From the NCBI GenBank assembly GCA_004022145.1, contig RCNU01000002.1: a DNA stretch of 64,000 bases; one strand, 5' to 3'. Within the stretch, counting starts at the first letter, position 1. Each line of letters opens with the position of its first letter. The translations under genes were made by a program, and so were the position numbers. This DNA is from Paecilomyces variotii (taxonomy: Eukaryota). Shown one piece after another: positions 30,201-42,081 of the stretch. The notes below the pieces were generated by a model. It did no database searches, was not told the DNA's origin, and saw only the letters and a program-made list of their open reading frames with translations.

Positions 30201-30857
30201 TACCGAGATGGTGTTTCATTACCGCAACGCACAGGCTTCGGAGACCAGTCATGGGGGAAAAACCGCCACGCCGCTTTGGAACGGTCGAGGTTCACAACTT
30301 GAGCGACTCAAGCAAAACGCTGGCACTGCCAATCGTCCCGAAGAAGTGATCCCTTCATCACCAAGCTGGCATCTGCCAATTGTAACCTCCCACGCTTCTT
30401 CCAGCTATCTAGGGTATGCGGATGCATGCAGGCAAACTATTATCGCAAGAAGCCACAGGGAGAAATCCCAATAATCATAATTAATAGTCGACGATTTCCA
30501 TCTCGCCGACTCCAGATCCCGACGGGCTGGAAACTAATAGGATCGCCGTCCGAGAATCCGGCAAAAAACGGCCTGACAAGCGATCCAAGCGGTTTTCCTG
30601 CAACACAATTCCCACCTAGATCACTTAGCGAGACGCTCAGGCCGCTCGTTCTCAGTGGTATCGCCAGCTGTTGGCTGGAACCAGACCAGGAAATGCGCGC
30701 TACCGCAAAACAAACTGCGCGTTGGACAGGGGGTTTTTCATCCTAACAATGCGCTTCTCTGAGAGTATCATCGTGCTCCTGGTATTGCCCATGTACGCGT
30801 TGTGTATGCTGGGCGTATGCAGTTTAGCTTTCTTTACCCATACTAGACCGGTGGGTT

Positions 30858-31213
30858 GGTCGCGAGGTCGCGAGGCGGCGTCTCGCGAGGTGGCGAGGTT
30901 TTTGTTACCAGTAGATTACTAGTAAATTACTATTTTATATTAAAATTATACTAATATATATTAATAAAGATTAAAATCTAAAATTTTTAAATCTCGCGGG
31001 GTGGTAAGTATAGGTAAATCTTATCTTGCGGGGTGGTAAGATTGTAATTGCTGTATTTTATACTAAATATTATTAGTTTTATTAGTAAAGTTTAATTACT
31101 ATTAAAACAGCTTAGTTGTAAATTATCATTATACTGCCCCGCGAGACTGTGTAAATAACTGTTAGATCTGTATTAAAATTAAGCAAATACAGGCTATTAA
31201 TTTTAGCTGATCT
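30858..31213 (+). repeat. Left TIR of MULE-like element
   Basis: Reverse complement of 39625-39980 with about 17 mismatches by manual alignment, all transitions. Confidence 0.95.
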
Positions 31214-31799
31214 ACTAATATATACTGGTAGATTTCAAAATCTACAGATACAAAAGACTAAGTATTATTAAAGGCAGAAGATAAAAGGGAGTTAGTAAGT
31301 AATATCTCCTAGAATATACTAGGTATTACTAGTTACTAACCATAATAACTAATTAGAAATATTTAAGATAAATTATAAACTTTTAAAATTATAATTATAT
31401 ATATATATATATTAAATATTCTATTTTAATTTATTTTAATATAAACTAAATATTACTAATATAACTATTAACTAATATATTTATATAGCTTAATCATTTT
31501 TTAGAGATATTATAATTTACTGAAATATAGTAGTTATTACTATAATCTAGTAGTTAGGACTAATAATTACTATAGTAAGCTCACAGGAAATAATTGGCCT
31601 GATAGGAGAGTTCCTATACTAAGCTTAATAAGCTAAGGATTTATATAAACAATATAAATATTTTAGCAAGTAAAAAGTTTAAATATATTAAAAAAACTTT
31701 TAAAACCTTTTTATTTTTAGATATTACTTTTCTTTAGCTATTAATAGTCTTATTAAGATTATTATGGCTTTAGATCTATCTTAAAGACTCCTAGGAGTT

Positions 31800-34700
31800 A
31801 TAAAATCTAATAATATTTCTAATTAGAATTAAAAAAATGATTATTTAGTTTATTTTATTAAAACTCCTAATATCTTAGAGATATTAAATGAATTTAAGCG
31901 GGAGCCTTAGGATAAAGACTCTAATAATAAAGATCTTTTGAATATAGTATGTTAATTACTATTATATACTAATCTTTATTATGATAATATTTATATTACT
32001 AATACTATATTATAATATTAGATTAATAACCAACTTATTACTAATATATTTAGTAGGGAATCTAGTAACTAATTATTAGATCTAGAGGAGTTATATCTAA
32101 TCTTTATTAATAGTTTATTAGAGATATTACTTTTTTCTAGATTAACTAGTGTTAAACTAGGTATAAAACTGCTTTTTAGTATTTTTAGTTAAGCTAAATA
32201 CCTTTAATATTCTCAGATAATACTAGAATACCCTAGTATTTATTTTAAAGGTATTGCTTATTATATAAATATTAATAATCTAATATAATCTACAATTAAT
32301 AACTATTATAGTTAGGTAAATATTAATTTATATTAGTAGCAGTTATAAGAGTACTAATATATATTAGATTTAATATAGTAAAGGTTTAAGAATAACTAGC
32401 AGTAGTAAAACAAAAGTAACTATATATATACTATTTCTTAATAATACTAAATATATTGTTAAGAAATAGCAATGTTCTGGTATTTGTTATTATCTATATA
32501 TACCAGAACATATTTAGACTCTTAATTATACTAAAGCTTCTAAAAGTATTTAGTTATAACTAATACTTAATTAATATAACTAAGAAAATATTACTAATAA
32601 CCAAATAGATTAGTAATAACTAAAAGAAACTAGCAATTAACTTTATAATTCTAGGATTTATTAATAAGACTATAGATGTCTTAATTCCTGCCATAATAGA
32701 GGCTTAAAACTTAAATATAATCACATAAAGATAAGTATTAATTCTAATTAATATAATCTAATATATTAATAATATAATTACTACTAGGACTTAATATTAA
32801 TAATAAATCTTATTAAGATCTATACTGGCTTAGGTATAACTAATAGTTTCTATCTAATAGTATACAGCATTATTTCCAGTATCTTTTAAGAATACTAAAC
32901 TTTAACTACACTTACTTATATGAGTTATATAACTCGCAAGCTAGTAATTCTAATCCTACTAGTACTATTAGTTATACTAATATCTCTACTAATATTACTT
33001 CAATAATAAACCCATAAATCTATAGTTTAGTTAAATTAATACGAGCTTGCAGTAAATATTATAATAAAAAAAATTTTTAATCCTTACTAAAATTAACTGG
33101 ATATAACTGCTAATACTAAATACTATTATATTACTAGCTTATCATAGTATATTTAATCCGATTCAAACAGTTCTATATAATATTCAATTTTTATATATTA
33201 TACCTAAAGACTATTAGCAAGTATTATTTATACTATTTATTAGTTTTAGAACCTATTGATATCTACTACCTCCTACAGTAAAGGTACCCCATAATATCTA
33301 GAATGATATTACTAAAATCATTTAAAAAACCGATATTTAGGGGCTTATTATTAGTATGTTTTAAGATATATTAATAACCCCTAATAATTACTAATAAAAT
33401 ACACTATATACTAACAACTATTAATACTAGGTTAATTTATATAGAATAGTAATCTCTAATAATACCTAAAAGAGAATAATATAATTAGGCTTTCTTAGAT
33501 TTATCCAGCTTTGAACAATTAGGATATTATACGCTAAATAATATATAAAGAAAAACTATTAAGGAATCTATTTAGTGAGAGCTATAATAGTAAGTATAAG
33601 CTATAATTATTAATATATATTAGTAGATATTAATATATCCTATAATACAGCGGTTCTCTTCCAATTCCTAATAAAAACCTAAAATTTATAAAGTTATAAA
33701 TATATTTGTAATATATACAATAATAGGGTAAATATTTATATTATTTGCTTTTCTTAAGAATAATTAATTGCTTTTAATAAATAATATTCTTTTTAAGTCA
33801 ATATAACTTATAAATGCACTAATAATAGCTTTAACAAAGTTATTTTTATAATTATGCTAGAAATAGTTAGTAATAGTATATATTACTATATACTAATTAT
33901 TATTAAGTATACTTAATATTAATTAAGCCTATTTACTACTTTAATAGTTATCCTTACTTAAGTTTTTATAAATAAAGACTTAATAATAATGTATATAAAG
34001 CTATTTAAAAAGATTTTCTCTCTTTTAGCTGTTATTAGTAATAGTAGCAGCTATTAATTTAACTAATAACATATTAATAGCTCCGGGATATAAACAGTAA
34101 TTACTAATATATGTTATAAATAAGCTACTAGTAAGTATTATAATAATCAGTTTTAGTAATATATATACTAGTATAGTACTAATATTTACTAGGCCTTAGT
34201 TAATACTTATATAATATTGATAATACCCGATCTTAGCAGGAGTATATAATATATATTATTATATTTTATTTAATTTATTATTTTTAAGGTATATATCGGA
34301 AATATTAGAGCTTTAATATATATCAGCTTATATATTAGTTAGTTTTAGAAATAACTAAAAGCAACTGTAATTAAATCTTATAGACTTTATATAATTATAA
34401 TAATTAGGATATCTAAATATAGGTTAAATATAAGGAGATTCTTTAGATCCTATCTGGTCTAAATGCTAATTACTCTTAGATGCCTTTAATTATATTTAAT
34501 ACCTATTAGAGGAATTTAAATATAGTTAAAGCAATATATTATTAGGACTAAGTCTTAACTAATATTAAAATTTTATTACTTAGTGCTATTATCTAGTAGG
34601 TAATATAACTTATTAGATAAAACTATTACTAACTAGATCTATAGAGCATAAGATATTAATAACTAAGCTGTTCATAAAATTAACTAGTATCTTAAAACTA

Positions 34701-35500
34701 ATATAAGACTTACTTTAAATTTGTCTATACCTCTAAGGTATATTCAGAATTAACCAGTATAAGCTATACCGCTAATATTAACTGGTAAGTAATAAAACCT
34801 ATTATATGGTTAATTATACAGAGACTATTATTATATATAAAATACTAATAAAGTATAGTTATATCTAGTATTACTAGCCCAATTAATCTTATAGATAGCC
34901 CAGACTCTCTAATAGTAACTTAGGCTATTTAATCTATATTAGATAGATTTAACTCTAATAGTATTATTAGTAAAAGAAAGCGAACTTAGCAGGCTATAAC
35001 TATAGATCCTATTATATCGCCTATATTTAACTAAAAAAGATCCAGAAAATCAGTAAATAAGAACCTAATACTGACAGTAATTAGAACTACTAGACCTATT
35101 AATATATCTAGCTTTAAGAGGTTACCCTCTTTAGAGACTAGTAGTCAGTTAAGAAATACTAGGATACCTAATAATATTATGGCTTATACTAATAAACTAG
35201 CTGCTATTAATAATATTAATATAATTAATAATAATAATTTAGTATTTAATAAAGAGCTTACTGCTCTCTAAGATAATATTAATTATTAGATATTAGAACT
35301 TCAAAAGAAGTATAATAAGATATAAGTAAGGATAATAGGTTTTGGTTTTAAGTTTTATCATTTAGTATTACTAGAAGATGTTAGTGAGTTAAATATTATT
35401 AGTTAATACTAATATATTAGTCTATTAAAAAGAGATATATTATAAAATTAGTTTATTAAACTAGAACTACTAGTATAAACTATACTAGATTACTAGTTAC
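31800..35500 (+). pseudogene. RIP-degraded MULE-type DDE transposase (boundaries approximate)
   Basis: Reversing C>T/G>A recovers CSGIC (~32473), GTH.HPPPP..K.P (~33250), IHPALNN.D (~33500), FQVDMTYKR (~33792), HIDGSGI....DMC.KQA|GLG (~34070-34200, intron gtaag at 34131) and W.EH..HII.FC.IHY (~34235-34285, CxxH signature). Confidence 0.7.
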
Positions 35501-35542
35501 TAGAAAACTAGATAGTATTAAATTCTAAGTCTGAATTACAAC

Positions 35543-37721
35543 TACTAGACCTAATTATCTAATATATAGTCCTACCTAATATATAATTTTTCTTAAGGAA
35601 TTTAAAATTTTAAAATATAAATATCTTTATAATTAGTAGATTAAATATTTAAATATTTAAATAAGATATTCTAAACCCTTAAAAATATAATATATATAAT
35701 TTTTATAAAAAATATTAATATTAAAATAATTAAATCTATTATTATATATAATAATATTTAAAAATTATTTATTTATTTTAATCTTTAATAAATTAATTAT
35801 TTTTATTTTATTTTATTAATTAAATATATTTAAATAATTTTTAAACTTAGTTATTTAATATATAATTTTATTTAAACTTTTACTAAAATTTTAAAAAATT
35901 TAAAATATAAATATTTATTAATAAATAAATTAAATTATTAAATATTTAAATAAAATAAAATTATTAGTTTTATCTTTAAATAGCTTTATATAAAATAGAA
36001 TTATTTTATTAGATATAATAATATTTTAATATTTAAATTTATATATCTTTTTATAATTAAAATAAAAAAAATATTAATTTTAATTAGATTAATATATTAA
36101 TTAAAAGAAATTATTAATACATTTTTTAAATATTTAGAGATATTCTATTATTTTAAGATATTTATATAATATTATAAATAATTATAGATTAAAAATAAAT
36201 ATTAGAAAATTTATATTTTTAAATTATTATAAATTATTATAATATATTATTAAAAAATTATAAATATAGGATTTTAAATAATAACAAAAAATTCTAAATC
36301 TCTATACTTTATATAATTAAAATAAATAATAAATAAAATATTAAAAGTAAGCTTAAAATTAAATTAAAATTAATTTTTTAAATAATAATATTGAAACTTA
36401 AAATAAAGAAAAATAATATAAATTTTAACTTTATTAAATCTATATAATAATTAATTATAATCTTCTTTATAAATTAAAAACTTAAAAGAAATTAATTATA
36501 ATTATTCAAATAATAAGAATATTAAATAATCGTTTTAAATTAAATTACAAAGGAATATATTAAAGAATTATTGTTAATATAAATTACATCTATTAAATCT
36601 CTTCTAAAAATAGTTTTAATAAGTTAAATTTAAATATTATATTATTTTAAGTTTATTCTAATTATGTTTTATTATTTATATTTAAATATATTATATTATT
36701 TAGAAAAATTTATTTATTTTTTTAAAAAATTTTAAAATATTAAATTAAACCTTTATTATAATAAGTTTATTTAAGAATTTAATTAAAATAAATTAATTAT
36801 TTTAATAATAATTAATATAAGATTAAAATCTTTAATTTATTTATTAATTTAAAATATATAACTTTTAATTTAATTATTAATAAAAAATAGAATTTATTTT
36901 TAAAATTTAAAAATATTTTAATTATTCTTAATAATAGACTTTATAAAAAATATTATTAATTTAAGAATTAATAAATATATTTAATATTATTTTATAAAAC
37001 TATTTATTAATAATTTTTAATATTATTAATTTAAAAGTTATTTTTATATATTAATTTATAATATTAATACTTTTAATATAATATAATATATATTTTTCTT
37101 ATTTAATTATAATAATATTTAAATTATTTTAAAAACTATAATAAATTATAATATTAATATTTAAATTTTAAAATATTAATAATATTATAAAATATAATAT
37201 TATTATATTTTAAAGTTTAAAGATAAAAAAAGAAGTTTTTCTTATAATTATTTTATATTTTTTCTTATATATAAATTATTTTATAAGTTAAAAATATTAA
37301 AAATTACTTTAAATTTAAGCTAAAAAAATAAATTAAAAATTTTATTAAAAAACTTAATTAAATAATAAAAGAATTAAGAATTAAATAATTTTAAAATAAT
37401 ATTAAATAAGTTTATTAAAATTATAAAAAGATTTATAAATATTTTATTTATTTAAAAATTATAAAAATATTAATTTATTAAAAATTAAAATAAAAAAAAT
37501 TTAAATATTATTAAATATAATAATAGATTTAATTATTTTAATATTATTATTATTCTATAAAAATTATATATATTCTTATTTTTAGAGATTTAGAATACTC
37601 TACTTAAATATCTAATTATTTACTCTACTAATTATTAAGATATTTATATTTTAAAGTTTTTAATTCCTTAGGGAAAATTATATATTAGGTAGGACTATAT
37701 ACTAGATAATTAGGTCTAGTA
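35543..37721. mobile_element. Nested ~2.2 kb TIR element (probably Tc1/mariner-pogo), extremely RIP-degraded
   Basis: ~116 bp imperfect inverted repeats: TACTAGACCTAATTATCTA.TATATAGTCCTACCTAATATATAATTTT... from 35543 and its complement ending at 37721. Outermost bases are TA on both sides. The interior is almost devoid of C/G. Superfamily inferred from size and TA ends only. Confidence 0.75.
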
Positions 37722-37779
37722 ATAATAGAGATATTTTAAGTAGTATACTAATAAATTTACTAGCTACTAAAAGGAACTA

Positions 37780-39058
37780 ATATTAATCTATTATAGTCTA
37801 TCTAACTGCCTTTATAAGAAACCAGCACTAACTAATACTAACTAATACTAAGCAGCACTAACCTATTGCCCAATTACAATTAGTTACTTATATCTTTACT
37901 TTTCCTTTATTTTTACCTTTAGCACTGCTAGCCCCATTAGTAATATTAATAGTACTACTCTTATTAGTAGTAATAGGATTATTTCAAGTCTTATAAGGTA
38001 GGTAGTAGCTATTAATAAGGTTAGTAATAATTAATATATCTTAGAATATTAATATTTATTGGGAATAACTGTAATTAATCCTATTACAGGCTTTATACTT
38101 CTTATTTATATATAATTTACAAAGACTAGTTATATTAATAAATACCAATACTAACTAAGGAAATAATATATACTAGTAGAACTATTATATATCTAATAGT
38201 TATCTTAGGGGATTTTAATCTAGTAGAGTTATTAGAGAAGTCCTCCCCTTCAGAATTAGTTTTTGCCACTTTAAGTTTATTACTACTATTAGATACTAGT
38301 ATTATAAAGTATATTTTAGTAACTATACTTACTAATCGCCTTTACCCTTTCCCCTATTTAAAATCCTTAGGCCCTTAAAGAGATTAATATATTTAAATCC
38401 CTATTAATACTACTAGTTAATATTAATAGAGAATTAACTAAATAAGTATACTTATAATATAAGATATCTTAATATATTTATAAATAATAGAACCTAAACT
38501 CTAAGTTAACTAATTTACTTTAATAGGACCAGTTAGTACTAATACTAACTAGGCAATTATATAACTAATTAATATATACAGCTTATAGACGCAATATAGA
38601 TAGTATTTTATATACTTTAATATCTCTTAATAGCTATTAGTATTCTTAAATATAACTAATAAGGATTAGATATAAATACTTACAATCTTGTCTTTATATA
38701 GCTACTTCTTCTTCTTATAATAGATATAATTGCAAATTTTTTTCTTTCTATAACTAATTAGAATAATACTACTAATAAATACTAATATATAATAGATATA
38801 CATAATTTTACTACTCTTAGATAGGGTAGCCTTCTAGGCGTTAGAATTACTAGTTAAACTAGTAGTATTAGTAGTATAACTGCCGCCAGTAGGGCTGGTA
38901 GGAGCAGTATAATTAATTATATTAATAGGATTAGTAGTAATAGTAATAATGCTAGTAGTATTATTATTAGCATTGGTAATAATATTACTAATCAGATTGG
39001 TAAAGGTTACTATTATACTAGTTAGTAGACTATACTTACCTAATCTACTAATTGCCAT
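37780..39058 (-). pseudogene. Possible second (cargo/accessory) gene relic of the MULE-like element
   Basis: ATG at 39058 with a 74-codon residual ORF. Downstream minus-strand sequence is codon-like (KEKKFAI..RRRS..IKTR) followed by a gtaagt donor-like site. Heavily mutated; end is approximate. Confidence 0.4.
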
Positions 39059-39454
39059 CTATTAGTAATTAGTATTTACTAAATATAACTAATATAACTA
39101 GAAATGTATAAAAAGTGGTAAGAAATAAGAGTAACTAGTATTAGTTTTTAAGCCTAATTATTAGTCGCAATCGCAACTACTAAATCTGACTATTACTTTC
39201 TTATTCCCTATAAGCTTAAACTAGAGGATATAAGATTTAAAAAAGATAGAATTAGAATAATAATAAACTTAGTGTATCTAGACACTTTTATTAGGGATTA
39301 AAAATAAGATTAATTAGGACTTACCTATCTGAAGATAGTTAATAAAGGGAAGAAATTAAAAAGGATTAATTAAATATGATTTTTTTTTTATAGGCTAAAT
39401 AAATAATATACTAGCCTAATTTAGAAATATAAACATCTACTAGAATAAATTTAA

Positions 39455-39585
39455 TATTGCCTAGTCTATTAGTTAGATATAGCCTATGAGTATATTAGTT
39501 ATATATAGCCTGCCACTAATATACTAGTTAGATATAGCCCACTACTAAAGTATAAGTCGGATATTGCCTAGTATACTAGCCGCAA
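39455..39585. repeat. Subterminal degenerate tandem repeats (~25-29 bp unit)
   Basis: Recurring tagttagatatagcc / tagttatatatagcc / aagtcggatattgcc units just inside the right TIR. Confidence 0.6.
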
Positions 39586-39624
39586 CTACTTTGTATTAAT
39601 ATATTTTAATAGACTAGTTTACTA

Positions 39625-39980
39625 AGATTAATTAAAATTAATAGCCTGTATTTGCTTAATTTTAATATAGATCTAATAGTTATTTATATAGTCTCGCGGG
39701 GCGGTATAATAGTAATTTATAACTAAGCTATTTTAATAGTAATTAAACTTTATTAATAAAACTAATAATATTTAGTATAAAATACAGCAATTACAATCTT
39801 ACCACCCTGCAAGATAAGATTTACCTGTACTTACCACCCCGCGAGATTTAAAAATTTTAGATTTTAATCTTTATTAGTATATATTAGTATAATTTTAATA
39901 TAAAATAGTAATTTACTAGTAATCTACTGGTAACAAAAACCTCGCCACCTCGCGAGACGCCACCTCGCGACCTCGCGACC
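39625..39980 (-). repeat. Right TIR of MULE-like element
   Basis: Inverted copy of 30858-31213. Confidence 0.95.
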
Positions 39981-42081
39981 CATATAACCATACTAGACTG
40001 TAACGCCAGCCGTACGGCTCCGTGACGAAGCCATACATACACTACACCCTTGTCCCCTCTTCGCACACCAGACGCATATCTATGGATAGGAGGTTGGGGG
40101 ATTTTGATGCAGAGACATAGTTACATCTTGTCACTATTTCGTTTAGCAAGTTTTCTGCTCACATTATTCAAACTGATATCCTAGAGGCCATTTGAAGAGT
40201 CTATCCTTAGATTTAGTGTCGTGTCGTTTAAATAACCATACTATTTCCTTGCGTTGCAACCTGTGTAGCTGATCGTCCGGGATTCAACAATTATTGATTG
40301 TCTATTCTCCTGTAGGATTTACTAGCTATCTAGAAATTGGTCCGAAGTATATTAATGACAGTCAGGTTTATTACCATTATCTGAAACCCTATATTGGAAT
40401 ATTATCCCCATAAACCAAACCAAGCCTGTGTCCTCTCTAATCTACCCTTGACTATATAGGAGCTCTTGCAGTGTTCATTTAACTACCATTGGCTAATTGG
40501 TTTCTGTTTCCAGAGAATATGTAGGTCTCACTGACCTAGCTCAGCCTACCGGATCTGAGGCTCGAAATAGGATCTACTGTTATTGTTCCTATAGAGTTTT
40601 ATTATCTTTACCTGAGACGTTTTTATTGTACACGTAAGCAGTAATATTGTACATATGGAAGTATGTAAAATCCCAATACGAATCATGCCGAACTGTTTGC
40701 GGTGTCATGTCAGCGGAACATCGAAAGACTGTGTAAAGCTACTGAGCGAGAAAATATCGAGATACAGGATAGTACGCAGTGCCGGAGGTGGAAGACGAGC
40801 TAGGTCGAGGATATACCATGTCTATTTCGTATCATCTAAATCGTAGAAGTGCTCTCTGGAAGAATTATTTAATTGTCCTTGAATTATTGTGCCCTATTAG
40901 AGCTCTTAAATGCAGTCTCCTATTTGCTCACGTGTTTTCCATACTCTTGCTATCCCAGTACAGTGCTTGAATTATCTTTATTCCTACTTGTGGGATCGAG
41001 CTGGTTTATGATATCCCACAAGGGACGCGGTCATGGCCTGAGAAATCTTTTCCAATTGATTTGAAAAATGGTTTAGATTTAAAGTAAACAGCACCTGGGT
41101 AGTAAGACACAGATACAGTTGAGTCTGCAAACATATGTAACCCCAATAGATTGTATTGAATGAAAGATGCATAATAGCAGAAATCCCCACGGCGATAGCA
41201 CATAAAGTGCAAGAACAAAGGTAACTATTGCAGACCCCTGTTTCAGAATAACAACAATACACTCCCAATAACCCAGCCACCCTCCTTTCAGTGAATAAGG
41301 GTCTACAGATGCACTTAGATTTTTTCACTGAAGACAGTATATGTTATACATGAGAGAAATCTACACATCTGCACTCTGAGAAACTATAGCAGTAGAGCAG
41401 CATTGTATAGCATATGGTGGTATATAGAGTTCCCCCAGCTAGTAAAAGTGATATAGCTTTATATTCGCACGCTTTTCTGGCAAGATACGCCCAGATCTAT
41501 CTATTTGAGTTGAACAGACCTGCAGGTCTCTATAGATATTAAAACTAAGATATTTCCCGAGATGAAATAGTATAAGCACAACAAATCTGTTTCGTATTGT
41601 ACGCGGACATAATATGACAGCAGTCCGCTAGATGAAGACACTGTCAGAATCATAAGACAGTTCTCCAGAGCCCTTTTTTAAACTTCATCAGAGGTGGCTG
41701 GGCCCATTGATATGGTCAATTGGAGTGGCGATTTGCCATTGATGAGCTCCCAGCCCCAAAACCCGTCTTGCAGAGCAGGTACTTGGAGGACGCCCGGTCG
41801 AATTCACTAACCTCACGAACCTCACAGTATGACCTGGCCTGCTTTGCTGAACTCATTACCTCGAGACATCATTTGAATCAAGTTCTCTTCCTTTTTCTGT
41901 CTGCACTTTCTCTTCTATCTCCTTGTCAGCAAACCTGAAAGAGCAATCTCCGCGGCAAAAGTAGGTCCCCAAGCCCCTTTTACACTTTGTATCGTGCCAT
42001 TGACGTACCGGAAGATAAGATTCCAGTCTCAATTCCAATCTAAATCGAGAATACAGAGCCGCAATTCAAAAGCAAATCAAC

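What the first reader, a model, noticed from the sequence alone, without database searches (positions are those of the whole stretch)
30849..39989. Complete 9.1 kb Mutator-like transposon hidden under RIP
Seen: an ORF-free AT-rich block bounded by ~356 bp TIRs and a perfect 9-bp TSD (ATACTAGAC), with 9 mismatched terminal bases on each side. Reversing transitions recovers a multi-exon protein with D (VDMTYKR), D (ADMC.KQ) and CxxH motifs, plus an N-terminal CSG.C...H.HPPP region. Established: long TIRs, a 9-bp TSD and CxxH indicate the Mutator superfamily. Inference: this ties a fungal protein family I associate with 'hypothetical' annotations to a defined mobile element with mapped ends, possibly an undescribed MULE lineage.
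Basis: partly seen in the sequence, partly recalled or inferred. Interest (0 to 1): 0.75.

Follow-up and report, generated by a model that had tools for sequence, protein, structure and literature searches.

The report
RIP-killed two-gene fungal Mutator transposon
This AT-rich block is a mutation-killed copy of a fungal cut-and-paste transposon whose intact sister copy shows that it carries a second, zinc-finger-like gene and a short DNA word repeated along its length, a layout worth testing as a built-in control or counter-silencing system.

Summary
Ends confirmed: 356-bp inverted repeats, fixed asymmetric 9-bp termini, 9-bp TSD. Seven of eight insertions in this genome have exact 9-10-bp TSDs. 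The window copy is dead (76 stops; D, D, E all mutated), but no deRIP is needed: a sister copy (L022) is intact. It encodes a 960-aa, 11-exon DDE/CxxH transposase (best fold match ISCth4, IS256/Mutator) with a weakly supported GCM-like N-terminus. Mutator membership is supported. 'Undescribed lineage' is doubtful: the transposase fits the briefly described fungal MuDRF branch, though I could not compare sequences. The two-gene layout plus motif is the new part; its function is untested. No empty site or expression could be shown. The scan noted a similar intron-rich Mutator-like wreck on other DNA of this genome.

The parts
30840..30848 (+). Left target-site duplication ATACTAGAC
30849..30857 (+). 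Left-specific 9-bp terminus CGGTGGGTT, unpaired with the right end, identical in 7 left ends of the genome
30858..31213 (+). Left TIR, 356 bp; holds 8 matches to a GC-rich TCGCG(A/G)G-like motif (30860-31144), candidate transposase-binding sites
   Evidence: binding is inference
31764..35325 (+). Gene A, RIP-destroyed transposase, 11 exons: 31764-31946, 32022-32315, 32368-32730, 32817-33063, 33138-33353, 33431-33589, 33651-33875, 33945-34130, 34193-34595, 34645-34784, 34859-35325. 76 stops in 960 codons; 4 of 20 splice sites lost. Intact (960 aa) in L022
32473..33262 (+). Cys/His-rich, GCM-like DNA-binding region (C195, C201 ... C376, H402, H404 of the 960-aa model)
   Evidence: positions; conservation in 28-32 of 36 aligned proteins; fold of homolog P0052 vs 1odh Z 5.6
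33800..34530 (+). Catalytic core: D538 (33800), D617 (34106), C650xxH653 (34267-34278), W701 (34420), E737 (34528); all six changed in the window copy
35543..37721 (.). Nested non-coding insert, 4-8% GC, TA at both ends, about 300-bp inverted repeats whose first 150 bp resemble an end of stand-alone pogo/Fot1-like elements (L040, L041); present at the same place in all 3 long copies
37888..39013 (-). Gene B, RIP-destroyed second gene, 8 exons: 39013-38802, 38753-38684, 38626-38580, 38519-38456, 38400-38333, 38279-38193, 38125-38060, 38008-37888; 5 stops and start codon lost. Intact (244 aa) in L022; CxC, CPYC...HxxxxH and CxxC-x6-C-x6-C motifs
30849..39989 (.). Dispersed palindrome ACYRGT (consensus TACYRGTA): 27 remaining in the window copy vs 8.7 expected; 58 vs 9.8 in the intact copy; none in the nested insert of L022
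39625..39980 (-). Right TIR, 356 bp
39981..39989 (-). Right-specific 9-bp terminus (GGTTATATG read inwards)
39990..39998 (+). Right target-site duplication ATACTAGAC

Best explanation
The block is a RIP-inactivated copy of a recently mobile Mutator-superfamily (MuDRF-like) cut-and-paste transposon of an ascomycete. The native element is about 7 kb and has two convergent, intron-rich genes read inwards from the two ends. Gene A is the transposase: a GCM-like zinc domain (inferred to bind the TCGCG(A/G)G repeats in the TIRs), a helical linker, and an RNase H DDE core with CxxH and W, which inserts the element with a 9-10-bp stagger. Gene B is an accessory zinc-finger-like protein, most likely a DNA-binding regulator of the element; the dispersed ACYRGT word is its candidate site. 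An ancestor picked up a pogo-derived insert between the two 3' ends, the one place that breaks neither gene; that insert was already RIP-saturated before the three long copies arose. The window copy and its twin L021 were then hit by RIP, while L022 stayed intact. Because the extreme ends are spared by RIP, dead and short copies can still be moved in trans. Shown: ends, TSDs, copies, gene structures, RIP pattern, fold class, motif excess. Inferred: binding sites, role of gene B, order of events, present activity.
For: Exact 9-10-bp TSDs, all of different sequence, at 7 of 8 two-ended insertions. L022 gives a stop-free 960-aa product over 10 GT-AG introns and a stop-free 244-aa product over 7 introns; independent annotations P0001/P0002 and P0161 from Paecilomyces variotii use most of the same junctions. 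D, D, C, H, W, E conserved in 80-83 of 84 core-spanning homologs. All 5 Foldseek matches with E<=0.001 are ISCth4 chains (best 1.8e-6); VIA best 6xg8, Z 11.1, rmsd 5.4, 255 aligned. Atlas ranks 2-3 are MULE clusters at 0.95 and 0.94. N-terminal model of homolog P0052 matches GCM 1odh, Z 5.6, rmsd 3.8, 101 aligned, the only listed row lying in the Cys/His region. Gene B matches the N-terminal extension of P0006, upstream of its transposase part (E 5e-11, 32/80 identical). Window vs L021: 1 transversion in 6952 sites; vs L022: 8 in 6953. C/G sites mutated: 6 of 92 in the outer 120 bp vs 957 of 2302 in the body. ACYRGT 28 in 3000 non-coding bases vs 5.3 and 12.4 in 2- and 3-letter shuffles; top of 32 comparable word classes; excess also after synonymous-codon shuffles.
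Against: No Pfam MULE hit at cut-off: 0 families for P0001, none of 42 aligned members at E<=0.01, 2 of 36 at E<=1, best 0.047; Pfam GCM never listed. Hermes (hAT), P element and RAG follow ISCth4 within 2-2.5 Z units, and CxxH and W are shared with hAT (PMC5225508). The GCM match is below Z 8, made on a homolog, and Foldseek found nothing with E<=0.001 for that model. Gene B has only one non-Paecilomyces relative among the 160 proteins held, seen as a fused gene model, not as DNA. With 4-letter shuffles the ACYRGT excess shrinks (28 vs 20.6, maximum 28). The motif did not shield the dead copies from RIP (CpA/TpG sites mutated: 94 of 116 near the motif, 384 of 503 elsewhere). No empty site, transcript or transposition was shown. 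No copy without the central insert was seen.
Confidence: 0.85

Rival explanations
1. Gene B is a VANC-like counter-silencing or activating factor: it binds the dispersed ACYRGT words and keeps the element transcribed or free of heterochromatin; protein and word co-evolve. (A stronger version of the best explanation.)
For: Motif excess specific to this element and absent from the nested insert, host flanks and three other RIP blocks; present in 6 of 7 gene-B introns, TIRs and UTRs; 6 copies in a 380-bp fragment of an 84%-identical sister family. Gene B has a C2H2-like motif. In Arabidopsis VANDAL Mutator elements the accessory VANC protein binds a short motif accumulated in non-coding parts (PMC5735166, passages).
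Against: No sequence link to VANC tested; the motif is not in tandem repeats and is also in exons; no protection from RIP in two dead copies; no binding data.
Confidence: 0.2
2. Gene B is a passenger or a simple helper (like mudrB or mutB), and ACYRGT is a by-product: Thr-Gly/Thr-Ser codons in Thr-rich low-complexity segments, TACTAG/ACTAAT-like splice signals and an old RIP-shaped composition.
For: 19 of 26 exonic copies are in frame 0 as Thr-Gly/Thr-Ser/Thr-Ser codon pairs; TACTAG is the top 6-mer and ends several introns; 4-letter shuffles nearly absorb the excess.
Against: Excess persists in non-coding DNA alone and after synonymous shuffles (A 17 vs 7.4, 0 of 500 reach it; B 8 vs 3.5, 2 of 500). 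ACTGGT/ACCAGT contain RIP substrates and are readily mutated in the dead copies, so RIP survival does not explain them.
Confidence: 0.4
3. The element belongs to another DDE superfamily with an inserted helical domain (hAT, P, Kolobok or a separate branch), not Mutator.
For: No Pfam MULE hit at cut-off; Hermes and P element score Z 9.4 and 9.3.
Against: TSD 9-10 bp rather than 8; 356-bp TIRs; best fold match and all significant Foldseek hits are the IS256/Mutator transposase; Atlas neighbours are MULE clusters.
Confidence: 0.07
4. The central 2.18 kb is an integral spacer or hairpin of the element, not a nested transposon remnant.
For: All 3 long copies carry it; its middle 1.5 kb does not align with the pogo transposase region even in purine/pyrimidine terms.
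Against: TA at both ends; its arms begin with the same terminal sequence as two stand-alone elements that encode a DDE_1 transposase; far more RIP-saturated than the rest, equally in the intact copy; no ACYRGT words. Arms pair only over about 300 bp (82-85% vs 63-64% null).
Confidence: 0.1

Closest known systems
MuDRF, fungal branch of the MuDR superfamily (Cantu et al. 2011, PMC3164196; passages and the text of the Figure S2 file seen, the alignment picture not)
   Same: Fungal; 9-bp TSD; transposase with a GCM-like domain in front of a DDE domain; distant from ordinary MuDR (they needed four PSI-BLAST rounds; here Pfam MULE is below cut-off); homologs of our protein reach Basidiomycota.
   Different: MuDRF was reported from Basidiomycota and Naegleria as encoding one protein. 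This element is from an ascomycete, has a second convergent gene, 10 + 7 introns, 9-10-bp TSDs and a dispersed motif. No sequence comparison with Repbase MuDRF was possible.
Maize MuDR (mudrA/mudrB) and Yarrowia Mutyl (mutA/mutB) (PMC6446971, passages; convergent transcription of MuDR is recalled)
   Same: Mutator superfamily, long TIRs (MuDR), TSD 9-10 bp (Mutyl), two genes; Mutyl's second ORF is listed with a C2H2 finger and a DNA-binding role.
   Different: Mutyl has 22-bp TIRs and sits in the Hop group, which Pfam MULE-type searches recover; no homology of gene B to mudrB or mutB was tested.
VANDAL21/VANC21 of Arabidopsis (Hosaka et al. 2017, PMC5735166, passages)
   Same: Mutator-type element with an accessory protein and a short motif enriched in introns and intergenic parts.
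   Different: Plant; motif YAGTATTAY amplified as tandem repeats; binding and demethylation shown there, nothing shown here; our motif is a palindrome, scattered, and also in exons.
MATE elements of Aspergillus nidulans (Clutterbuck 2004; recalled from memory, only its citation seen)
   Same: As recalled: about 6 kb, 9-10-bp TSD, RIP-mutated and intact copies, dozens of short ACTAGT-like 'Spe' motifs along the element, no long ORF.
   Different: The recalled motif RWCTAGWY itself is not enriched here (3-5 copies). Homology untested: no AMA1/MATE sequence was on hand (no match in the plasmid collection).
ISCth4 transposase, IS256/Mutator family (PDB 6xg8, 6xgx)
   Same: Best structural match to the catalytic part.
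   Different: Bacterial, 8-10% identity, no GCM-like region.

Membership tests
Mutator/MULE superfamily | TSD of 8-11 bp (PMC6446971) | tested here: met
   Exact 9 bp at 5 and 10 bp at 2 of 8 two-ended insertions; the eighth (L025) fails the exact test in an error-ridden arm. Two of the seven pair ends by inference (across a contig gap; 30 kb apart).
Mutator/MULE superfamily | Long TIRs (commonly hundreds of bp) | tested here: met
   356 bp, 95%; about 800 bp in the short derivative L023.
Mutator/MULE superfamily | RNase H-fold DDE transposase related to IS256 | tested here: met
   ISCth4 best in both searches: E 1.8e-6; Z 11.1, rmsd 5.4, 255 aligned. D/D/E in 81, 80, 83 of 84 homologs.
Mutator/MULE superfamily | CxxH after the second D and conserved W before the E (PMC5225508; shared with hAT) | tested here: met
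   C 81, H 81, W 82 of 84.
Mutator/MULE superfamily | Pfam MULE domain PF10551 above cut-off (a marker, not a definition) | tested here: inconclusive
   Not reached: 0 hits for P0001; 13.4 bits vs cut-off 27.6 for P0005; 2 of 36 at E<=1. Atlas neighbours carry it at 65-91% of members.
Mutator/MULE superfamily | Transposition catalysed by the encoded protein | not testable with these tools
   Only indirect: multiple near-identical insertions with different TSDs.
MuDRF | GCM DNA-binding domain in the transposase | tested here: inconclusive
   Leans positive: homolog P0052 model vs 1odh Z 5.6, rmsd 3.8, 101 of 157 residues, the only listed row in the Cys/His region, and predicted beforehand; conserved CxGxxxC and HxH. 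But Z<8, no Foldseek hit, no sequence hit to PDB or Pfam GCM.
MuDRF | 9-bp TSD | tested here: met
   5 of 7 exact TSDs are 9 bp, 2 are 10 bp.
MuDRF | Encodes one protein | tested here: not met
   Two intact genes in L022. Hence 'MuDRF-like', not filed as a member.
MuDRF | Sequence homology to Repbase MuDRF transposases | not testable with these tools
   Repbase not available; Figure S2 gave only its legend.
VANDAL/VANC-type anti-silencing system | Short motif enriched in non-coding parts of the element | tested here: met
   28 in 3000 non-coding bases vs 5.3 / 12.4 / 20.6 under 2-, 3-, 4-letter shuffles.
VANDAL/VANC-type anti-silencing system | Accessory protein binds the motif and lifts silencing | not testable with these tools
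   No binding or chromatin data; no local RIP protection in dead copies.
pogo/Fot1 (Tc1-mariner) for the nested insert | TA TSD and terminal sequence of a DDE_1 element | tested here: met
   TA at both ends; ends align with L040/L041, and L041 gives DDE_1 at 45.6 bits, cut-off 22. The name pogo/Fot1 for DDE_1 fungal elements is recalled.
pogo/Fot1 (Tc1-mariner) for the nested insert | Transposase gene inside | tested here: inconclusive
   Middle part does not align with L040/L041 above null; it is 4-8% GC and partly mis-assembled. Read as a non-autonomous derivative.
Pack-MULE (short copies L024, L025) | Captured host DNA between TIRs | tested here: not met
   The 50%-GC interiors are 90% purine; 205 T-to-G differences against the other arm: assembly artefact.

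The most novel reading that the evidence does not exclude
A fungal Mutator lineage has evolved its own protein-plus-motif control system: gene B encodes a zinc-finger protein that reads the roughly 58 ACYRGT words spread through the element and counters host silencing, an independent parallel to plant VANC. The lineage (and perhaps the MATE/AMA1 elements of Aspergillus, recalled as having similar TSDs and scattered motifs) persists in a RIP-active fungus, and an intact copy is on hand to test it.
Probability: 0.2. Interest if true: 0.8.

Novelty: new variant of a known kind. Interest (0 to 1): 0.45.

Why it matters
A RIP-killed Mutator copy is ordinary. The value lies in the intact sister. It ties a family of at least 675 unannotated proteins (named members from Asco-, Basidio- and Chytridiomycota) that Pfam misses to an element with mapped ends. 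It gives a complete, probably functional element of a branch that appears in one relevant paper of the searched library. It shows dead and short copies keeping their terminal motifs under RIP. And it makes a concrete question testable in a tractable mould: do fungal transposons carry accessory proteins that read element-specific words, as plant VANDALs do?

Tried and rejected
Pack-MULE reading of L024/L025: rejected as a T-to-G assembly artefact in one arm of a foldback element. Whole 2.2-kb centre as one palindrome: rejected, pairing falls to null after about 300 bp. High-copy nested family: its ends occur only in the 3 long copies plus 2 diverged stand-alone elements. Shared RIP history of the window copy and L021: 683 shared changes vs 625 expected from 4-letter context strata, not decisive. 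Motif as RIP shield: not supported. Recalled MATE motif RWCTAGWY: not enriched. Pfam on 13 exon pieces, on P0001, P0161 and two alignments: nothing at cut-off. Sequence searches of PDB: no relevant hit. Foldseek on the N-terminal model: none at E<=0.001, GCM not among the rows shown. Atlas for gene B: best 0.90, unnamed ascomycete cluster, no family. Plasmid collection: no match. Sequencing runs: 20 of 24 listed hold part of L022, 16 half or more, 10 studies, 2 on record as RNA (0.52, 0.39); none could be laid, so this shows neither expression nor empty sites, and the best holder may be the source sample. One search gave wrong stop counts for gene A through an alignment-gap bug; one search is the corrected count. 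Joining the window flanks restores no long ORF. No deRIP consensus was needed. Literature: 10 searches found no description of this element or of a two-gene GCM-type fungal MULE; the library lacks most subscription papers and Repbase Reports, so this is weak evidence of absence.
Full report
Observation. The block 30849-39989 is as described at its ends. Inverted repeats of 356 nt, 95% complementary, lie at 30858-31213 and 39625-39980; ATACTAGAC flanks both sides; none of the 50 frames of 120 aa or more in the window falls inside; GC is 6-26% per kb against 38-56% outside. The 9 unpaired terminal bases are not decay: 7 left ends in the genome are exactly CGGTGGGTT and 7 right ends exactly GGTTATATG, with 2 more at 1-2 mismatches and no hits for reversed controls.

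Copies. A search of the own genome found two more long copies (L021, 9125 bp, same contig; L022, 9104 bp) and several short ones. Of 8 insertions with both ends, 7 have an exact duplication, 9 bp in five and 10 bp in two, all of different sequence; L025 fails the exact test in an error-ridden arm. Two of the seven are paired by inference (L026/L030 across two contig ends, L027/L028 30 kb apart). The short copies (about 1.9-2.0 kb) are foldbacks with about 800-bp arms. Two seem to hold 50%-GC cargo, but that DNA is 90% purine and differs from the opposite arm mainly by T-to-G (205 sites in L024), so it is an assembly artefact.

An intact sister makes deRIP unnecessary. In L022, 11 exons joined over 10 GT-AG introns of 49-86 nt give 960 aa without a stop. 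Its exon 9 is 100% identical to P0001, a Paecilomyces variotii hypothetical protein, and a second cluster member with two accessions exists; these models keep most of my junctions but skip part of the N-terminal coding sequence, including the CSGVRCC motif that homologs retain. The window copy differs from L022 at 522 of 2883 coding bases, 520 of them C-to-T or G-to-A, and has 76 stops; D538, D617, C650, H653, W701 and E737 are all changed and 4 of 20 splice sites are lost. Outside the central insert the window copy and L021 differ by 1 transversion in 6952 sites and from L022 by 8 and 9; 989 sites are A/T in the window and G/C in L022, 5 the reverse. CpA sites are hit most (75%), then CpG (62%). 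RIP with CpA bias is shown experimentally in P. variotii (PMC6300479, passages; 'Mutator' and 'inverted repeat' do not occur in its main text). I infer that the window copy and L021 are twins that were RIP-mutated, and that L022 is a slightly different lineage that escaped or arrived later. L022 itself has an older imprint: introns 20% GC with TpA/ApT 1.44, third codon positions 31% GC. The outer 120 bp are nearly spared (6 of 92 C/G sites vs 957 of 2302) and hold a TCGCG(A/G)G-like repeat at matching positions in long and short copies, absent from the body.

The transposase. P0001 has 675 relatives at E<=0.001. Of 20 looked up plus 3 named directly, the named ones are hypothetical or uncharacterised proteins of Eurotiales, Onygenales, Dothideomycetes, Xylariales, Agaricomycetes and a chytrid (the higher-taxon labels are recalled). 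In 84 core-spanning sequences (of 151 with a hit) D, D, C, H, W, N and E are kept in 80-83. Pfam does not recognise the family at cut-off. The AlphaFold model (mean pLDDT 73.9, core above 90) matches ISCth4, the IS256/Mutator transposase, best in both searches (E 1.8e-6; Z 11.1, rmsd 5.4, 255 aligned), with Hermes, P element and RAG at Z 8.4-9.4. Atlas neighbours are an unnamed mostly basidiomycete cluster (0.96) and MULE clusters (0.95, 0.94). With the TSD and TIR length (criteria from PMC6446971, passages) this supports the Mutator superfamily.

Is the lineage undescribed? Probably not. From memory I suspected MuDRF; PMC3164196 (passages, and the legend text of Figure S2; the alignment picture was not readable) describes it as a distant fungal MuDR branch with a GCM domain, a DDE domain, one protein and 9-bp TSDs. 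It is the only relevant paper of the library with that word and is not named in the 2019 MULE survey. To test the GCM prediction I folded a natural N-terminal homolog, P0052. Among 48,161 chains the only listed row lying in the Cys/His region is the GCM domain 1odh (Z 5.6, rmsd 3.8, 101 aligned). That is a predicted but modest match; Foldseek and sequence searches did not find it. I call the element MuDRF-like and do not file it as a member, because it has two genes and Repbase sequences could not be compared.

On the minus strand of L022, 8 exons give 244 aa without a stop; P0161 from P. variotii is the same model within 2 residues of length. It faces gene A. It has Thr-rich ends, a CxC and CPYC...HxxxxH segment and a CxxC-x6-C-x6-C segment. 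No Pfam or Atlas family. The CxC/CPYC segment matches the N-terminal extension of the Penicillium protein P0006, in front of its transposase part (E 5e-11), the only such hit among 160 proteins held. So a gene-B relative travels with this transposase in at least one other genus, there in tandem; I saw only the fused protein model, not the DNA.

Missed, 2: a nested insert. 35543-37721 is 4-8% GC, has TA at both ends and about 300-bp inverted arms (82-85% vs 63-64% null). Its ends match two stand-alone 2.16-kb elements (L040, L041), one of which scores DDE_1 above cut-off. Its middle does not align with their transposase region and is partly mis-assembled. It sits between the two stop codons in all three long copies and is equally AT-saturated in the intact one, so it was inserted and RIP-mutated before the copies arose. 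The Mutator element proper is about 6.96 kb. No insert-free copy was seen.

Missed, 3: a dispersed word. Prompted by an earlier scan note on a two-gene hAT element (e1-7239544, unchecked), I looked for enriched words. ACYRGT occurs 58 times in the 6985 bases of L022 outside the insert (shuffles: mean 9.8, maximum 15 of 30), 27 times in the window copy (8.7, maximum 18), and near chance level in host flanks (31 vs 20.8; 20 vs 18.3), three other RIP blocks and the two pogo-like elements (4 vs 1.3, maximum 3; 2 vs 0.7); 0 in the insert. In non-coding DNA alone it is 28 vs 5.3 and 12.4 (2- and 3-letter shuffles) but 20.6 with maximum 28 under 4-letter shuffles; it is first among 32 comparable word classes and survives synonymous-codon shuffles. 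It gave no local RIP protection. The parallel is VANC/VANDAL (PMC5735166, passages); a compositional by-product remains about twice as likely as a VANC-like role.

Mechanism. Shown: structure, copies, TSDs, gene models, RIP, fold class, motif excess. Inferred: the GCM-like domain binds the TIR repeats; the DDE core cuts and pastes with a 9-10-bp stagger, as for Muta1 (PMC5225508, passages); gene B is a DNA-binding helper; dead and short copies move in trans. Not shown: empty sites, transcripts, present activity. Twenty of 24 listed runs from 10 studies hold words of L022, but none could be laid.

Papers seen: passages of PMC13004909, PMC6300479, PMC6446971, PMC1702500, PMC5751038, PMC3164196 (plus supplement list and one legend), PMC5735166, PMC5225508; citation lines only from PMC11401059, PMC5496416; PMC3422177 was irrelevant; others as search listings. 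MATE features are recalled. Supplements of PMC6446971 (sequence sets) were not read and could hold members of this family.

Verdict. Observation confirmed, interpretation partly supported. A real, dead copy of a MuDRF-like Mutator element; new variant of a known kind through its second gene and dispersed word; interest 0.45.

Noticed in passing
L022:399-9502 (G000:C1:2695248-2704351): Intact copy of the family: both genes open, TSD CGCACGTGG; introns and TIRs carry an old RIP-like composition while exons are stop-free.
   Followed up: yes
L023:501-2416, L024:625-2616, L025:584-2499: Short 1.9-2.0-kb foldback derivatives with about 800-bp arms, AT-saturated interiors and intact termini; two have one arm garbled to purines by the assembly.
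   Followed up: yes
L026:3229 and L030:4631: A left end near the end of contig C1 and a right end near the end of contig C7 share the 9-mer GAGGTTCTT: probably one insertion, which would join the two contigs across a repeat-filled gap.
   Followed up: partly
L027:600 to L028:9337 (G000:C9:42999-72936): Ends with a shared 9-bp TSD 30 kb apart; the interior is filled with other AT-rich DNA, presumably nested elements.
   Followed up: partly
L035:6392-6759 (G000:C5): 368-bp remnant: the right-end terminal 17 bp joined to an 84%-identical, un-RIPped piece of gene B, between 10-bp direct repeats GGTAGGCTAA; sign of a sister family.
   Followed up: partly
L033:7038-7329 (G000:C23): About 290-bp un-RIPped fragment of a related transposase gene (73% DNA identity, same intron position), no ends found.
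   Followed up: partly
L040:5191-7346, L041:5019-7175: Two RIP-mutated 2.16-kb DDE_1 (pogo/Fot1-like) elements with 51-52-bp TIRs and TA ends; likely source family of the nested insert.
   Followed up: yes
L029:4813-5157 (G000:C67): Lone, more degraded left end at the edge of an AT-rich block; partner end not found.
   Followed up: no
L022 introns of genes A and B: Seven or more of the 17 introns end in (T/A/C)ACTAG or contain TACTAAT; the dispersed word ACYRGT is one or two changes from splice-acceptor and branch-site words, which may relate to the intron richness. Speculation.
   Followed up: no
window:58327-60930: 867-codon intronless stop-to-stop frame with acidic and low-complexity stretches; not examined.
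   Followed up: no
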